A stretch of DNA of 64,000 nucleotides from assembly GCF_003334405.1 (NCBI RefSeq), contig NZ_QOWM01000002.1. One strand, written 5' to 3'. Below, in pieces: positions 30,979 through 43,004 of the stretch. The notes beneath the pieces are model-generated. The model worked only from the letters and a program-made list of their open reading frames with translations, made no database searches and was not told the origin of the DNA. The position numbers and the translations under genes are program-made. This DNA is from Escherichia coli (GTDB lineage: Bacteria > Pseudomonadota > Gammaproteobacteria > Enterobacterales > Enterobacteriaceae). The stretch's first letter is position 1. Every line of letters begins with the position of its first letter.

Positions 30979-31275
30979 ATGGAAAAACGCACACCACATA
31001 CACGTTTGAGTCAGGTTAAAAAACTTGTCAATGCCGGGCAAGTTCGTACAACACGTAGTGCCCTGTTAAATGCAGATGAGTTAGGTTTGGATTTTGATGG
31101 TATGTGTAATGTTATCATTGGATTATCAGAGAGCGACTTTTATAAAAGCATGACCACCTACTCTGATCATACTATCTGGCAGGATGTTTACAGACCCAGG
31201 CTTGTTACAGGCCAGGTTTATCTTAAAATTACGGTAATTCATGACGTACTGATCGTCTCGTTTAAGGAGAAGTAA
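30979..31275 (+). CDS. mqsR: Type II toxin MqsR (mRNA interferase)
   Basis: 98-aa ORF MEKRTPHTRLSQVKKLVNAGQVRTTRSALLNADELGLDF... Confidence 0.95.
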   Translation: MEKRTPHTRLSQVKKLVNAGQVRTTRSALLNADELGLDFDGMCNVIIGLSESDFYKSMTTYSDHTIWQDVYRPRLVTGQVYLKITVIHDVLIVSFKEK

Positions 31276-31276
31276 T

Positions 31277-31672
31277 ATGAAATGTCCGGTTTGCCACCAG
31301 GGAGAAATGGTTTCTGGCATTAAAGATATTCCATACACCTTCCGTGGACGAAAAACAGTATTGAAAGGTATCCACGGTTTATATTGTGTCCATTGCGAAG
31401 AGAGCATCATGAATAAAGAAGAGTCAGATGCTTTCATGGCGCAAGTAAAGGCATTTCGGGCTTCGGTGAATGCCGAAACAGTGGCACCTGAATTTATAGT
31501 GAAGGTTCGAAAAAAGCTCTCTCTTACCCAAAAAGAGGCAAGCGAAATTTTTGGGGGAGGTGTAAATGCGTTTTCGCGTTACGAAAAAGGCAATGCCCAA
31601 CCTCATCCTTCCACAATCAAACTTTTACGTGTTCTGGATAAGCATCCAGAACTATTGAATGAAATCCGTTAA
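31277..31672 (+). CDS. mqsA: Antitoxin and transcriptional regulator MqsA (Zn-binding N-domain + Xre HTH)
   Basis: 131-aa ORF MKCPVCHQGEMVSG...CVHCEES... with two CxxC pairs; 1-bp gap after mqsR. Confidence 0.95.
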   Translation: MKCPVCHQGEMVSGIKDIPYTFRGRKTVLKGIHGLYCVHCEESIMNKEESDAFMAQVKAFRASVNAETVAPEFIVKVRKKLSLTQKEASEIFGGGVNAFSRYEKGNAQPHPSTIKLLRVLDKHPELLNEIR

Positions 31673-38266: not shown

Positions 38267-38376
38267 TCTTCATACTCGCCCGAGGAGGGCGAGTATGGAA
38301 TACCTTTCGATTTCTCTTTCGTTCCGGCTTATAATCCCCGGCCTTTGATTATTTTTTTATCATTTCTGGAAGCAAA

Positions 38377-40596
38377 ATGAGCTCTATCTCCCTGATCCAA
38401 CCGGATCGCGACCTGTTCTCCTGGCCGCAGTACTGGGCCGCCTGTTTTGGACCGGCACCGTTTTTGCCGATGTCTCGTGAAGAGATGGATCAACTTGGCT
38501 GGGATAGCTGCGACATCATTTTGGTTACTGGCGACGCGTATGTCGATCACCCAAGCTTCGGGATGGCGATTTGCGGTCGTATGCTGGAAGCGCAGGGCTT
38601 TCGCGTCGGGATCATCGCCCAGCCGGACTGGAGCAGCAAAGACGACTTTATGCGTCTGGGTAAACCGAATCTGTTTTTCGGTGTTACTGCTGGCAACATG
38701 GATTCGATGATCAACCGTTATACCGCCGATCGCCGTTTACGTCATGACGATGCCTACACGCCGGATAACGTCGCGGGTAAGCGCCCGGATCGCGCCACAC
38801 TGGTTTATACCCAGCGTTGTAAAGAGGCGTGGAAAGATGTACCGGTGATCCTCGGCGGTATTGAGGCTAGTCTGCGCCGTACCGCGCATTATGATTACTG
38901 GTCCGATACCGTGCGCCGTTCCGTGCTGGTGGATTCGAAAGCCGACATGCTGATGTTTGGTAACGGTGAGCGTCCGCTGGTGGAAGTGGCGCATCGTCTG
39001 GCGATGGGCGAGCCAATTAGTGAAATCCGCGATGTGCGTAATACCGCGATTATCGTGAAAGAGGCGCTGCCTGGCTGGAGCGGCGTGGATTCCACCCGTC
39101 TTGATACCCCTGGAAAAATCGACCCAATCCCGCATCCGTATGGTGAAGATTTGCCGTGCGCGGATAACAAACCGGTGGCACCGAAAAAGCAGGAAGCCAA
39201 AGCCGTAACCGTGCAGCCACCGCGCCCGAAACCGTGGGAAAAAACCTACGTGTTGCTGCCTTCTTTCGAGAAAGTGAAGGGCGATAAAGTGCTGTACGCC
39301 CATGCTTCGCGTATTCTGCACCACGAAACCAACCCAGGCTGTGCCCGCGCATTGATGCAAAAACACGGCGACCGCTATGTGTGGATCAACCCGCCTGCTA
39401 TTCCGCTTTCTACCGAAGAGATGGACAGCGTTTTTGCGCTGCCATACAAGCGCGTGCCACATCCGGCCTATGGCAATGCCCGTATTCCGGCTTACGAAAT
39501 GATCCGTTTTTCGGTCAACATTATGCGTGGCTGCTTTGGCGGCTGCTCTTTCTGTTCTATCACCGAGCACGAAGGGCGCATTATTCAGAGCCGTTCCGAA
39601 GATTCGATCATTAATGAGATCGAAGCGATCCGCGACACCGTTCCAGGTTTTACGGGCGTGATTTCCGATCTTGGTGGGCCAACTGCCAACATGTATATGT
39701 TGCGCTGCAAATCGCCACGCGCTGAACAAACTTGTCGCCGTTTGTCGTGCGTTTATCCGGATATTTGTCCGCACATGGACACGAACCACGAACCAACGAT
39801 CAACCTCTATCGCCGTGCGCGTGATCTGAAAGGCATTAAAAAGATCCTGATTGCCTCTGGTGTGCGTTATGACATAGCCGTAGAAGATCCGCGCTATATC
39901 AAAGAACTGGCGACCCATCACGTCGGCGGTTATCTGAAGATTGCCCCGGAACATACCGAAGAAGGGCCGTTATCGAAGATGATGAAGCCGGGCATGGGCA
40001 GCTATGACCGCTTTAAAGAGCTGTTCGATACTTACTCAAAACAGGCAGGTAAAGAGCAGTATCTGATCCCCTATTTCATCTCCGCGCACCCCGGTACGCG
40101 TGATGAAGATATGGTGAATCTGGCGCTGTGGCTGAAAAAGCACCGCTTCCGCCTCGACCAGGTGCAGAACTTCTATCCGTCGCCGCTGGCGAACTCAACC
40201 ACCATGTATTACACCGGGAAAAACCCGCTGGCGAAGATTGGTTATAAGAGCGAAGACGTCTTCGTACCGAAGGGCGACAAACAGCGTCGTTTGCATAAAG
40301 CGTTGTTGCGTTACCACGATCCGGCAAACTGGCCGTTAATCCGCCAGGCGCTGGAAGCGATGGGCAAAAAGCATCTGATTGGCAGCCGTCGCGATTGCTT
40401 AGTGCCTGCGCCAACCATTGAAGAGATGCGTGAAGCTCGTCGCCAGAACCGCAATACCCGTCCGGCGTTGACGAAACATACGCCGATGGCGACCCAGCGT
40501 CAGACGCCTGCTACGGCAAAAAAAGCGTCGTCTACGCAATCTCGTCCGGTGAATGCTGGTGCGAAGAAACGGCCTAAAGCGGCGGTTGGACGTTAA
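38377..40596 (+). CDS. ygiQ: Radical SAM family protein YgiQ (UPF0313), function unknown
   Basis: 739-aa ORF; Cys-rich radical-SAM-type motif CFGGCSFC; basic C-terminal tail. Confidence 0.9.
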
Positions 40597-40602
40597 AAAA
40601 TA

Positions 40603-40638
40603 TCCCCGGCAACTGACACGCTACCGGGGATTTTTTTA
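40603..40638. terminator. Terminator between convergent ygiQ and yqhH
   Basis: tccccgg-loop-ccgggga hairpin followed by TTTTTTTAT; yqhH stop lies at its edge. Confidence 0.75.
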
Positions 40639-42900: not shown

Positions 42901-43004
42901 ACGTTCCTCCTTTATATGAACTCACCGGAGCAGGCTCCGGTGAGGTGTTGTGAACTTAAGTCTGGACGAAATGCCCGAAAACGAAAGTTTGAGGCGTAAA
43001 AAGC

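What the first reader, a model, noticed from the sequence alone, without database searches (positions are those of the whole stretch)
38377..40596. ygiQ: large radical-SAM protein of unknown function embedded in the plsC-ftsP neighbourhood
The 739-aa ORF carries a Cys-rich motif (CFGGCSFC) typical of radical SAM enzymes together with a large N-terminal extension and a highly basic C-terminal tail (…[51 protein letters not shown]) that could bind nucleic acid. No substrate is established, to my knowledge.
Basis: partly seen in the sequence, partly recalled or inferred. Interest (0 to 1): 0.35.

Follow-up and report, generated by a model that had tools for sequence, protein, structure and literature searches.

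The report
E. coli ygiQ, orphan radical-SAM enzyme
This ORF is the well-known but still uncharacterised E. coli K-12 gene ygiQ, a genuine radical-SAM enzyme that also has a conserved four-cysteine metal site and a strongly basic disordered tail, features that point (unproven) to a nucleic-acid or ribosome-linked substrate.

Summary
Window 38377-40596 (+) encodes a 739-aa protein 100% identical to E. coli K-12 YgiQ. It is the name-giving member of family TIGR03904/UPF0313 and is present in 5420 of 5426 complete E. coli genomes. No paper in the searched open-access library assigns a substrate.

New details from this work:
- The high-confidence AlphaFold model most resembles cobalamin-dependent class B radical-SAM methylases (MgmA, TsrM, TokK, CysS), then the methylthiotransferases RimO and MiaB. 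No B12-binding signature reaches significance in any of 87 family members.
- A second, conserved four-Cys site sits inside the core (C444/C453/C458/C464). The first Cys is relocated in a subfamily.
- The basic, Arg/Gly/Pro-rich disordered tail recurs across the family. Its sequence is not conserved, except for a proteobacterial LTQHTGLPPR-like motif.
- There is no conserved gene neighbourhood.
- ygiQ is co-expressed with ribosomal genes, and its ribosome-binding site is complementary to RyhB.

Best guess (about 0.4): a stand-alone enzyme that modifies the translation machinery. The gene is already known, so interest is modest.

The parts
38377..40596 (+). ygiQ coding sequence (739 aa plus stop)
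   Evidence: ORF list. 100% identical to MG1655 ygiQ. TIGR03904 883.5 bits against a cut-off of 462.
38461..39096 (+). N-terminal Rossmann/flavodoxin-like domain (about residues 29-240; first half of Pfam Radical_SAM_N)
39103..39243 (+). Disordered Pro/Lys-rich linker (residues 243-289), a lineage-specific insertion
   Evidence: pLDDT below 50. Gapped in about 95% of family representatives, and homologues match as two stretches on either side of it.
39244..39513 (+). Small alpha/beta bridging subdomain (residues 290-379; second half of Radical_SAM_N)
   Evidence: Pfam PF08497 extends to residue 379. High pLDDT and assigned secondary structure.
39514..40131 (+). Radical-SAM core (residues 380-585)
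   Evidence: Pfam PF04055, E=3.7e-11. Structural matches to radical-SAM cores.
39532..39555 (+). CX3CX2C motif CFGGCSFC (C386, C390, C393): predicted ligands of the SAM-binding [4Fe-4S] cluster
   Evidence: The only such motif in the protein. 97-98% conserved. Aligned to the cluster motifs of MgmA, RimO and MiaB.
39706..39768 (+). Second conserved four-Cys site C444-X8-C453-X4-C458-X5-C464, inserted after the GGPTAN (GGE-like) loop: candidate auxiliary Fe-S or Zn site
   Evidence: C453, C458 and C464 are 92-94% conserved and C444 is 80% conserved. Sequences that lack C444 have a Cys at position 450 (CxxC variant). 79 of 87 keep at least 4 Cys in this segment. Present in 70 of 71 proteobacterial homologues. 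pLDDT 94-97.
40156..40455 (+). Folded part of DUF3362 (residues 594-693): the QVQxFxPxPxT strand motif followed by a helical subdomain
   Evidence: Pfam PF11842, E=1.3e-40. Helices at 606-613, 634-644, 649-661 and 681-693.
40456..40593 (+). Disordered polycationic C-terminal tail (residues 694-739)
   Evidence: pLDDT 41-48. Net charge +12 over residues 691-739. Net charge of the last 45 aa has a median of +9 in 71 proteobacterial homologues against 0 in 480 control ORFs (Mann-Whitney p about 1e-37). Composition is R 22%, G 12%, P 9%, with aliphatic residues depleted.
40465..40485 (+). Short linear motif ALTKHTP inside the tail (residues 697-703), the enterobacterial form of [LF]xT[QK]HTGLPPR
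   Evidence: The T[QKR]H[TNS] core with conserved flanks occurs in 44 of 71 proteobacterial tails, often preceded by ARRKNSTP.
38366..38375 (+). CUGGAAGCAA: the Shine-Dalgarno region, perfectly complementary to the RyhB core UUGCUUCCAG
   Evidence: RyhB was located by Rfam in MG1655 and its sequence read. The complement search is. Ribosome profiling lists ygiQ as RyhB-repressed (PMC4666370).
38330..38335 (+). Perfect TATAAT hexamer 41 nt upstream of the ATG: candidate -10 element of ygiQ's own promoter (its -35 is weak)
   Evidence: Read directly from the sequence. The consensus scan did not flag it because the -35 matches only 3 of 6. This is an inference.
38269..38299 (+). 13-bp GC-rich hairpin just after the ftsP stop codon
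   Evidence: Fold energy -23.9 kcal/mol, z=-5.9, 0 of 200 shuffles as stable. It lacks a canonical U-tract.
40602..40631 (.). Bidirectional intrinsic terminator shared by the convergent genes ygiQ and yqhH
   Evidence: Terminator scan. Folds on both strands at -15.6 and -24.0 kcal/mol with z=-4.2 and -6.0, flanked by an A-tract and a T-tract.

Best explanation
YgiQ is a monocistronic housekeeping radical-SAM enzyme.

Shown here:
- It has a canonical CX3CX2C site in a radical-SAM core.
- In front of the core are a Rossmann-like N-domain, of the kind that class B enzymes use for cobalamin and methylthiotransferases use for an auxiliary cluster, and a small alpha/beta bridging subdomain.
- A family-wide conserved four-Cys site is inserted in the core.
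- After the core come a helical C-domain and a polycationic disordered tail.

Inferred mechanism:
- The reduced [4Fe-4S] cluster cleaves SAM to a 5'-deoxyadenosyl radical.
- That radical abstracts a hydrogen from an unactivated carbon of a macromolecular, polyanion-associated substrate. The most likely substrate is a component of the translation machinery: rRNA, tRNA, or a ribosomal or translation-factor protein modified on the ribosome.
- The second cofactor site then completes a C-C (methyl) or C-S bond formation. That site is either the four-Cys cluster or a cofactor held by the N-domain.
- The basic body and the Arg/Gly-rich tail supply non-specific RNA affinity. The embedded LT(Q/K)HTG motif may be a docking element.
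- Expression follows ribosome synthesis and is shut off by RyhB when iron is scarce.

Confidence split: identity as a radical-SAM enzyme of the YgiQ family is above 0.95. A nucleic-acid or translation-machinery substrate is about 0.4. No specific reaction can be named.
For: Identity:
- 100% identical to K-12 ygiQ; TIGR03904 883.5 bits; the three Pfam domains.

Fold:
- AlphaFold model pLDDT 89.2, pTM 0.87.

Four-Cys site:
- 92-94% conservation of three cysteines and compensatory relocation of the fourth.

Polyanion binding:
- 59 of 87 representatives have a tail net charge of at least +5, although the tails cannot be aligned and range from 0 to 344 aa.
- Proteobacterial tails have a median charge of +9 against 0 for controls, p about 1e-37.
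- Tail composition is R 22%, G 12%, P 9%, with aliphatic residues depleted 5-10 fold. That is RGG-like, not an amphipathic membrane anchor.
- The rest of the protein (all but the last 90 residues) is also basic: median pI 8.45 against 6.33 for neighbouring ORFs.

Link to translation:
- Two independent co-expression analyses place ygiQ with ribosomal proteins and rRNA/tRNA modification genes (PMC6412132; PMC3285575).

Stand-alone housekeeping pattern:
- No conserved neighbour in 80 proteobacterial loci or in 23 loci from more distant lineages.
- Chromosomal in nearly all E. coli genomes. Not a defence gene, phage gene or plasmid gene.

Iron sparing:
- A 10-nt perfect RyhB complement lies over the Shine-Dalgarno sequence, and ribosome profiling reports RyhB repression.

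Precedents:
- The nearest structural relatives include enzymes acting on a protein (MgmA), on ribosomal protein S12 (RimO) and on tRNA (MiaB).
- The other orphan E. coli radical-SAM protein, YhcC, was reported in 2026 to act in tRNA modification (title and abstract of PMC13228596).
Against: - No experiment links YgiQ to any RNA or protein modification.
- From my own knowledge, the known E. coli rRNA and tRNA modifications all already have assigned enzymes, so the product would have to be undiscovered, condition-specific or redundant.
- The delta-ygiQ strain keeps m6A2030 of 23S rRNA, but that rules out only one site (PMC3936739).
- Co-expression with ribosomal genes may simply reflect growth-rate control.
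- Basic disordered tails also bind DNA, polyphosphate and acidic membranes.
- No recognisable RNA-binding domain (TRAM, S1, PUA, KH) was detected.
- The near-invariant N-domain residues are largely acidic (D46, D53, D57, D109, D125, E163, D173, D190), which does not suggest direct RNA contact at that site.
- The gene is interrupted by IS1 in Photobacterium damselae subsp. piscicida, so it is dispensable there (PMC10441182).
Confidence: 0.4

Rival explanations
1. YgiQ is a true cobalamin-dependent (class B) radical-SAM methylase. The N-domain would bind cobalamin, and one SAM would supply the radical while a second supplies the methyl group through methylcobalamin. It would be active only when E. 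coli imports B12. The substrate could be a protein side chain (as for MgmA) or a small molecule. This is compatible with the best explanation if the substrate belongs to the translation machinery.
For: - Conserved loop residues lie after beta-1 (YVDHP; H58 in 85%), after beta-3 (G106, D109, S110) and after beta-4 (G160, G161). From my own knowledge, these are the topological positions of the DxHxxG, SxL and GG motifs of B12-binding domains.
- COG1032 groups YgiQ with B12-type radical-SAM proteins (bioRxiv 10.1101/2024.09.16.613360).
Against: - Pfam B12-binding is not significant for YgiQ (E=0.96) or for any of 87 relatives at E<=1e-3.
- The class B NCBIfam models score 14-27 bits against cut-offs of 251-650, and only around the Cys motif.
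- The canonical DxHxxG motif is absent; YgiQ has DHPSFG.
- CheY-like receiver domains score as well as B12 domains.
- From my own knowledge, class B enzymes do not share the conserved four-Cys insertion.
Confidence: 0.2
2. YgiQ is a sulfur-inserting enzyme of the LipA, RimO or MiaB type. The four-Cys site would hold an auxiliary [4Fe-4S] cluster that donates or carries sulfur to the substrate radical.
For: - The conserved C453-X4-C458-X5-C464 spacing equals the CX4CX5C auxiliary-cluster motif of lipoyl synthase (my own knowledge).
- Lipoyl synthase structures appear among the weaker Foldseek matches.
Against: - The N-domain has none of the three conserved cysteines that define the methylthiotransferase UPF0004 domain.
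- There is no TRAM domain.
- A fully Cys-ligated cluster has no open iron site, which sulfur-donor clusters normally have. A Cys4 site fits structural Zn or an electron-transfer cluster equally well.
- From my own knowledge, no unassigned thiolated product is known in E. coli.
Confidence: 0.12
3. YgiQ acts at the membrane or on DNA rather than on RNA or the ribosome. In this view the basic tail tethers the enzyme to acidic phospholipids or to the nucleoid, and adjacency to plsC, ftsP and parC in enterics and to uppP and ftsK in some gut Firmicutes reflects a role in the envelope, in cell division or in chromosome handling.
For: - The gene lies next to parC, plsC and ftsP in Enterobacterales.
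- It lies directly downstream of an ftsK homologue, within roughly 20 nt, in three divergent gut-bacterial contigs. Two of their YgiQ proteins could be compared and are 58% identical.
- Polycationic tails bind any polyanion.
- Among the weak local NCBIfam hits (14.9-24 bits) are radical-SAM models whose annotated substrates are lipids: ladderane-type lipid and hopanoid enzymes.
Against: - Both adjacencies are lineage-specific. Only 6 of 80 proteobacterial loci keep plsC and ftsP, and the most closely related family representatives whose contigs were examined lack ftsK.
- A strong hairpin separates ftsP from ygiQ.
- The tail lacks the hydrophobic face of a membrane-targeting helix: aliphatic residues are depleted 5-10 fold.
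- Co-expression is with ribosomal genes, not with envelope or division genes.
- Multicopy suppression of ftsEX by these clones was attributed to ftsP, and the ygiQ carried on them was incomplete (PMC7648144).
Confidence: 0.12
4. YgiQ is not a modification enzyme. It could be a cofactor chaperone or an Fe-S or redox-sensing protein that keeps a radical-SAM fold, as HemW does.
For: - No phenotype or product has been found since the gene was first annotated.
- From my own knowledge, HemW is a precedent for a radical-SAM-fold protein with a non-enzymatic role.
Against: - The SAM-cluster cysteines, the GGPTAN (GGE-like) loop and more than 50 further positions are near-invariant across the 87 aligned representatives, out of a family of at least 1476 sequence clusters.
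- That degree of conservation is typical of a catalytic site.
Confidence: 0.05

Closest known systems
YgiQ family (NCBIfam TIGR03904; UniProt UPF0313; Pfam Radical_SAM_N + Radical_SAM + DUF3362)
   Same: This protein is the name-giving member: 100% identical to K-12 YgiQ, 883.5 bits against a cut-off of 462, with all three Pfam domains.
   Different: Nothing differs. The family itself has no assigned function in the searched literature.
Class B cobalamin-dependent radical-SAM methylases (MgmA/QCMT 9ccb, TsrM 6wte, TokK 7kdx, CysS 9n1b, OxsB 5ul2)
   Different: - Sequence identity is only 8-18%.
- There is no significant B12-binding profile match.
- NCBIfam scores are far below the cut-offs.
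- YgiQ adds a roughly 90-residue bridging subdomain, a four-Cys insertion, DUF3362 and a basic tail.
- Cobalamin binding is untested.
Methylthiotransferases RimO and MiaB (4jc0, 7mjv)
   Different: - YgiQ has no conserved cysteines in the N-domain.
- It has no TRAM domain.
- TIGR00089 scores 25.9 bits against a cut-off of 251.
- YgiQ's extra cysteines lie inside the core.
AprD4 (6fd2), a radical-SAM diol dehydratase
   Different: About 9-10% identity. From my own knowledge AprD4 does not use cobalamin, which shows that this N-domain fold does not by itself predict B12 dependence. It acts on a small-molecule aminoglycoside within a biosynthetic cluster, whereas ygiQ stands alone.
Lipoyl synthase LipA/LIAS
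   Same: The CX4CX5C spacing of three of the four extra cysteines equals the LipA auxiliary-cluster motif (my own knowledge). LIAS appears among the weaker Foldseek matches.
   Different: In LipA the motif is N-terminal to the core and the fourth ligand is a serine. In YgiQ the motif is inserted after the GGE-like loop and a fourth Cys is conserved. The match is weak (E about 2e-3).
YhcC, the other long-standing orphan E. coli radical-SAM protein
   Same: A stand-alone 'y-gene' radical-SAM enzyme. It was reported in 2026 to act in mnm5s2U tRNA modification under anaerobic conditions (title and abstract of PMC13228596). That is a precedent for a hidden, condition-specific role in translation.
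   Different: It belongs to a different radical-SAM family and has a different architecture. No homology beyond the superfamily was tested here.

Membership tests
Radical SAM superfamily | CX3CX2C (or variant) three-Cys motif that ligates the SAM-binding [4Fe-4S] cluster | tested here: met
   C386-X3-C390-X2-C393 is the only such motif in the protein. It is 97-98% conserved in 87 relatives and aligns to the cluster motifs of MgmA, RimO and MiaB.
Radical SAM superfamily | Significant match to the Radical_SAM core profile and a partial TIM-barrel fold | tested here: met
Radical SAM superfamily | Reductive cleavage of SAM to 5'-deoxyadenosine by the purified protein | not testable with these tools
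   Requires anaerobic biochemistry. No such report was found in the searched literature.
YgiQ family (TIGR03904 / UPF0313) | Whole-protein score above the curated equivalog cut-off | tested here: met
   883.5 bits against a cut-off of 462.35, covering profile positions 1-557 of 558.
YgiQ family (TIGR03904 / UPF0313) | Domain order Radical_SAM_N, Radical_SAM, DUF3362 | tested here: met
   PF08497 at 29-379, PF04055 at 380-585, PF11842 at 594-721.
Class B (cobalamin-dependent) radical SAM enzymes | N-terminal Rossmann-like domain with the fold of a cobalamin-binding domain | tested here: met
Class B (cobalamin-dependent) radical SAM enzymes | Significant match to the B12-binding profile (PF02310) or to a class B NCBIfam model | tested here: not met
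   PF02310 E=0.96 over residues 50-80. 0 of 87 relatives reach E<=1e-3. TIGR04014, TIGR04072, TIGR04013 and NF038361 score 19-27 bits against cut-offs of 251-575.
Class B (cobalamin-dependent) radical SAM enzymes | Bound cobalamin and cobalamin-dependent activity | not testable with these tools
   Needs purified protein.
Methylthiotransferases (MiaB/RimO/MtaB) | N-terminal UPF0004 domain with three conserved cysteines for the auxiliary cluster | tested here: not met
   No cysteine in residues 1-380 is conserved above 17%.
Methylthiotransferases (MiaB/RimO/MtaB) | C-terminal TRAM domain and a score above the family cut-off | tested here: not met
   No TRAM match in YgiQ or in 87 relatives. TIGR00089 scores 25.9 bits against 251, and TIGR01125 scores 23.6 against 357.
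Radical SAM enzymes with an auxiliary Fe-S cluster (general) | An additional conserved set of at least three Cys ligands besides CX3CX2C | tested here: met
   The segment around C444/C453/C458/C464 keeps at least four Cys in 79 of 87 relatives, with the first Cys relocated in a subfamily. Present in 70 of 71 proteobacterial homologues.
Radical SAM enzymes with an auxiliary Fe-S cluster (general) | The extra cysteines actually bind an Fe-S cluster rather than Zn | not testable with these tools
   Needs metal analysis and spectroscopy.
Anti-phage defence or mobile-element genes | Match to a defence-system model, or carriage on phages or plasmids | tested here: not met
   PADLOC gives 0 families. 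The 'phage' hits examined are bacterial chromosomal fragments, and most of the rest are short or unannotated records. The 'plasmid' hits are very large replicons or records of chromosome size; 30 of 41 are non-mobilizable.

The most novel reading that the evidence does not exclude
YgiQ installs a modification on rRNA, tRNA or a ribosome-bound protein that has not yet been detected, possibly only under particular conditions such as anaerobiosis, iron sufficiency or B12 supply. It would do so with an unusual cofactor set: the radical-SAM cluster, a core-inserted Cys4 cluster, and possibly a cobalamin-like cofactor in the N-domain. It would be recruited by a polycationic disordered tail that carries a conserved docking motif. 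That would make it the founding member of a very large bacterial family of translation-machinery modifiers, with at least 1476 sequence clusters at 50% identity.
Probability: 0.25. Interest if true: 0.65.

Novelty: already known. Interest (0 to 1): 0.3.

Why it matters
From my own knowledge, ygiQ is one of the last E. coli K-12 radical-SAM genes that is not a glycyl-radical activase and still has no assigned reaction. Its family is very large: 1476 clusters at 50% identity reach E<=1e-30. It occurs from Enterobacterales to Fusobacterium and to gut bacteria whose taxonomy was not determined. Finding its substrate would annotate a very large number of genes and might reveal a new modification or a new radical-SAM cofactor arrangement.

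The first-stage finding adds nothing to the existing annotation. This follow-up offers concrete handles for experiments:
- the Cys4 site;
- the tail and its short motif;
- the RyhB pairing site;
- the structural kinship to class B enzymes.

Tried and rejected
1. Gene neighbourhood. I clustered the ORFs flanking the homologue in 80 proteobacterial loci. The most frequent neighbours were generic families (an ABC ATPase in 14 of 80 loci, PAS kinases, GGDEF-EAL proteins) in variable orientation. The plsC-ftsP linkage appeared in only 6 loci. Eighteen further loci from nine distant family representatives, plus five gut contigs, gave unrelated contexts. An ftsK-ygiQ adjacency in three gut contigs did not extend to the nearest representatives.

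2. Domain fusions. Scanning 87 relatives against Pfam found no recurrent extra domain. One AICARFT hit and one DUF11 hit look like assembly or ORF-calling artefacts.

3. Phage, plasmid or defence origin. All three were rejected.

4. Sequence search of the PDB. It gave only short local hits around the Cys motif.

5. Literature.
- 'YgiQ' in PMC8950095 is really the Sden_1168 P-methylase. The matching model NF038361 scores 18.9 bits against a cut-off of 575.
- PMC5577257 attributes RsmJ to ygiQ. From my own knowledge RsmJ is YhiQ, so this is an error.
- A search by locus tags returned only unrelated papers.

6. The first genome scan, using the 87-sequence alignment, failed because no stretch was conserved enough. 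It was repeated with a 35-sequence alignment. The 80 loci it returned were nearly all Gamma- or Betaproteobacteria, so breadth across phyla had to come from single look-ups.

7. The 405-aa antisense ORF at 38737-39954 matches no family and is treated as a shadow ORF.

8. Not done.
- A separate fold search of DUF3362 alone. It was judged to be of low value because its first part simply completes the radical-SAM barrel motif.
- Measuring the Cys-Cys distances, because model coordinates are not exposed.

9. The long RyhB duplex predicted by duplexfold (-47 kcal/mol) is not credible, because it ignores intramolecular structure. Only the 10-nt perfect complement is used.
Full report
**1. What is there**

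- The ORF list gives one long ORF at exactly 38377..40596 on the + strand: ATG start, 739 aa, with the quoted C-terminal sequence.
- The DNA is 100% identical to ygiQ of E. coli K-12 MG1655, annotated 'YgiQ family radical SAM protein' (WP_000095187.1).
- It matches 5420 of 5426 complete E. coli genomes, essentially always on the chromosome.
- The window is therefore the K-12 region containing parC, plsC, ftsP, ygiQ and the convergent genes yqhH, yqhG and dkgA.

**2. Is the Cys motif a radical-SAM site?**

Yes.
- CFGGCSFC is C386-X3-C390-X2-C393, the only such motif among the 14 cysteines.
- The protein scores 883.5 bits against the curated equivalog TIGR03904, whose cut-off is 462.
- It matches Pfam Radical_SAM_N (29-379, 1e-139), Radical_SAM (380-585, 3.7e-11) and DUF3362 (594-721, 1.3e-40).
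- An exhaustive profile search of 1.84 billion cluster representatives found 1476 clusters at E<=1e-30.
- In an alignment of 87 full-length representatives the three motif cysteines are 97-98% conserved.

**3. Structure**

- An AlphaFold2 model built on that alignment is confident: pLDDT 89.2, pTM 0.87. The low-confidence parts are residues 1-7, a linker at 243-289 and the tail at 694-739.
  - then RimO (15.6), AprD4 (14.2), MiaB (13.8) and OxsB (13.3).
- Foldseek gives a broadly similar ranking.
- At the sequence level the B12-binding profile is not significant: E=0.96 for YgiQ, and 0 of 87 relatives reach E<=1e-3.
- Every class B or methylthiotransferase NCBIfam model scores 15-27 bits, far below its cut-off, and only around the Cys motif.
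- So the 'B12-like N-domain' is real as a fold but unproven as a cofactor site. AprD4 and the methylthiotransferases share this fold; from my own knowledge they do not use cobalamin.
- The N-domain is nevertheless highly constrained. Near-invariant residues include D46, D53, D57, H58 (85%), D109, S110, G160, G161, E163, S165, R167, R168, H171 and D173. It must therefore do something specific.

**4.

- Inside the core, just after the conserved GGPTAN loop, lies C444-X8-C453-X4-C458-X5-C464.
- C453, C458 and C464 are 92-94% conserved and C444 is 80% conserved.
- Most sequences that lack C444 have a cysteine at position 450 instead, giving a CxxC-X4-C-X5-C variant.
- 79 of 87 sequences keep at least four cysteines in this segment. 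Most of the exceptions look like garbled or frame-shifted ORFs.
- In 70 of 71 proteobacterial homologues both motifs are present. In 68 of those 70 they lie exactly 58 residues apart.
- Relocation of a ligand while the count is kept is good evidence for a real tetra-Cys metal site. It could be an auxiliary Fe-S cluster or Zn; sequence alone cannot tell which.
- The CX4CX5C spacing equals the lipoyl synthase auxiliary-cluster motif (my own knowledge). This is a lead, not a test.

**5. The tail**

The E. coli tail:
- The last 69 residues have 17 K/R and a net charge of +13. Residues 681-739 have pI about 12.
- Residues 694-739 are predicted to be disordered.

Across the 87 representatives:
- The region after alignment position 645 ranges from 0 to 344 aa and cannot be aligned, yet 59 have a net charge of at least +5.
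- The pooled tails of 74 of these representatives (13 garbled sequences excluded) are 22% Arg (2.7 times the core), 12% Gly and 9% Pro. Aliphatic residues are depleted 5-10 fold.
- The longest tails are RGG- or RD-repeat-like.

In 71 proteobacterial homologues:
- The last 45 residues have a median net charge of +9, against 0 for 480 neighbouring control ORFs (Mann-Whitney p about 1e-37).
- The rest of the protein is basic too: median pI 8.45 against 6.33.

Selection therefore acts on charge, not on sequence. That is the signature of a polyanion-binding disordered region, and it is unlike an amphipathic membrane anchor.

One short motif is conserved inside the tail. [LF]xT[QK]HTGLPPR, often preceded by ARRKNSTP, occurs in 44 of 71 proteobacterial tails. 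In E. coli it reads ALTKHTP, residues 697-703. Its partner is unknown.

**6. Genomic and regulatory context**

- ygiQ appears to be monocistronic.
  - A 13-bp hairpin (-23.9 kcal/mol, z=-5.9) follows the ftsP stop codon.
  - A perfect TATAAT lies 41 nt upstream of the ATG.
  - A bidirectional terminator is shared with yqhH.
- Across 80 proteobacterial loci no neighbour is conserved. The plsC-ftsP linkage is confined to Enterobacterales.
- Distant representatives have unrelated contexts.
- Three gut-bacterial contigs, filed in GenBank as 'Bacteriophage sp.', show pnp, uppP, ftsK and ygiQ in that order. This arrangement is not general.
- No domain fusions recur.
- The gene is not a defence, phage or plasmid gene.
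- The Shine-Dalgarno region CUGGAAGCAA (38366-38375) is a 10-nt perfect complement of the RyhB core. A ribosome-profiling study lists ygiQ among RyhB-repressed genes (PMC4666370). This fits iron-sparing repression of an Fe-S enzyme that the cell can do without.

**7. Literature**

- None of the 26 listed papers (of 29 that mention ygiQ) appears, from its title and abstract or from the 16 read in context, to characterise the gene.
- Two independent co-expression analyses place it with translation genes.
  - PMC6412132 puts it in a module of translation genes.
  - PMC3285575 puts it in the ribosomal-protein community, together with rlmN, trmA, trmD, truB, queA, mnmG, rimM, rbfA and obgE.
- Delta-ygiQ retains m6A2030 of 23S rRNA (PMC3936739).
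- Two apparent functional mentions are errors of naming.
  - 'YgiQ' in PMC8950095 is the Sden_1168 P-methylase.
  - 'RsmJ encoded by ygiQ' in PMC5577257 should, from my own knowledge, read yhiQ.
- The other orphan E. coli radical-SAM protein, YhcC, was reported in 2026 to act in tRNA modification under anaerobic conditions (title and abstract only). That is a useful precedent.

**8. Most likely mechanism**

Shown:
- a radical-SAM core with a canonical cluster site;
- a constrained Rossmann-like N-domain;
- a conserved second Cys4 site;
- a polycationic disordered tail;
- stand-alone housekeeping genomics;
- co-expression with ribosomal genes;
- a RyhB pairing site.

Inferred:
- SAM is cleaved to a 5'-deoxyadenosyl radical, which abstracts a hydrogen from a substrate held on, or consisting of, a polyanion.
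- The most probable substrate class is rRNA, tRNA or a ribosome-bound protein.
- A second cofactor, either the Cys4 cluster or something bound by the N-domain, completes methyl or sulfur transfer.

I put about 0.4 on the translation-machinery substrate class. No specific reaction can be named.

Rivals:
- true cobalamin dependence (0.2), which is compatible with the main idea;
- LipA- or methylthiotransferase-like sulfur insertion (0.12);
- a membrane or DNA target (0.12);
- a non-catalytic role (0.05).

The main counter-argument is from my own knowledge: the known E. coli rRNA and tRNA modifications already have assigned enzymes. The product would therefore have to be undiscovered, conditional or redundant.

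**9. Verdict**

- The finding is a correct re-identification of a known, annotated orphan gene. The novelty class is 'already known'.
- The open question of what YgiQ does is real and long-standing, but the finding as written does not advance it.
- The follow-up adds testable handles: the Cys4 site, the tail and its motif, the RyhB site and the structural kinship to class B enzymes.
- Interest is about 0.3.

Noticed in passing
window 39706-39768 (YgiQ residues 444-464): A second conserved four-cysteine motif, C-X8-C-X4-C-X5-C, lies inside the radical-SAM core. A subfamily uses CxxC-X4-C-X5-C instead.
   Followed up: yes
window 40465-40485 (YgiQ residues 697-703); also L020-L073 tails: A short linear motif is embedded in the otherwise unalignable basic tail. 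It reads ALTKHTP in enterics and LTQHTGLPPR, preceded by ARRKNSTP, in Pseudomonadales and Burkholderiales. It is found in 44 of 71 proteobacterial homologues. Its partner is unknown.
   Followed up: partly
window 38366-38375: The ygiQ Shine-Dalgarno region CUGGAAGCAA is a perfect 10-nt complement of the RyhB core UUGCUUCCAG. This agrees with the published ribosome-profiling evidence that RyhB represses ygiQ.
   Followed up: yes
window 38269-38299: A very stable 13-bp hairpin (-23.9 kcal/mol) lies immediately after the ftsP stop codon and has no canonical U-tract. It may be a terminator, an attenuator or an mRNA-stabilising element between ftsP and ygiQ.
   Followed up: partly
window 40602-40631: A bidirectional intrinsic terminator, flanked by an A-tract and a T-tract, is shared by the convergent genes ygiQ and yqhH.
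   Followed up: partly
L091, L093, L095 (GenBank MT835572.1, MT836253.1, MT836718.1): Records filed as 'UNVERIFIED: Bacteriophage sp.' from human faeces are bacterial chromosomal fragments. L091 carries pnp, a ClpP-like gene, uppP, ftsK and a ygiQ homologue; L093 and L095 share the last four. The ygiQ homologue starts within roughly 20 nt of the ftsK stop in three divergent organisms. Both here and in enterics (parC, ftsP) ygiQ lies next to cell-division or chromosome-segregation genes, which is probably coincidence.
   Followed up: partly
literature (PMC5577257; PMC8950095): There are two naming errors around ygiQ. One paper states that RsmJ (m2G1516 of 16S rRNA) is encoded by ygiQ; from my own knowledge it is yhiQ. 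One review uses 'YgiQ' for the Shewanella denitrificans Sden_1168 P-methylase, which is not a YgiQ-family protein.
   Followed up: yes
L098 2444-5706 (metagenome contig encoding representative P0010): Downstream of this YgiQ homologue lie an FHA-domain gene, an NFACT gene (from my own knowledge, the RqcH ribosome-quality-control family), a Memo gene and an AMMECR1 gene. The same arrangement is seen, in part, in L097, L099 and L100, all of which encode the identical protein P0010.
   Followed up: no
window 38737-39954 (- strand): A 405-aa ORF runs antisense to ygiQ. It matches no NCBIfam family and is not annotated in RefSeq, so it is most likely a shadow ORF of the GC-rich coding strand.
   Followed up: yes
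window 5584-5733, 5959-6108, 14805-14953, 42939-43002, 48783-48853, 59823-59899: Rfam gathering-threshold hits elsewhere in the window: two SIB antitoxin RNAs, an FMN riboswitch, the ES173 sRNA about 40 nt upstream of dkgA, and naRNA4 (REP-type) elements. The element at 59823-59899 is hit on both strands.
   Followed up: no
window about 30979-31672: The mqsR/mqsA toxin-antitoxin pair lies about 7 kb upstream of ygiQ, according to the MG1655 annotation mapped onto the window. It is unrelated to the finding.
   Followed up: no
literature (PMC10441182): In Photobacterium damselae subsp. piscicida the YgiQ-family gene is annotated as two fragments that flank an IS1-like transposase. This suggests the gene is dispensable in that pathogen.
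   Followed up: no
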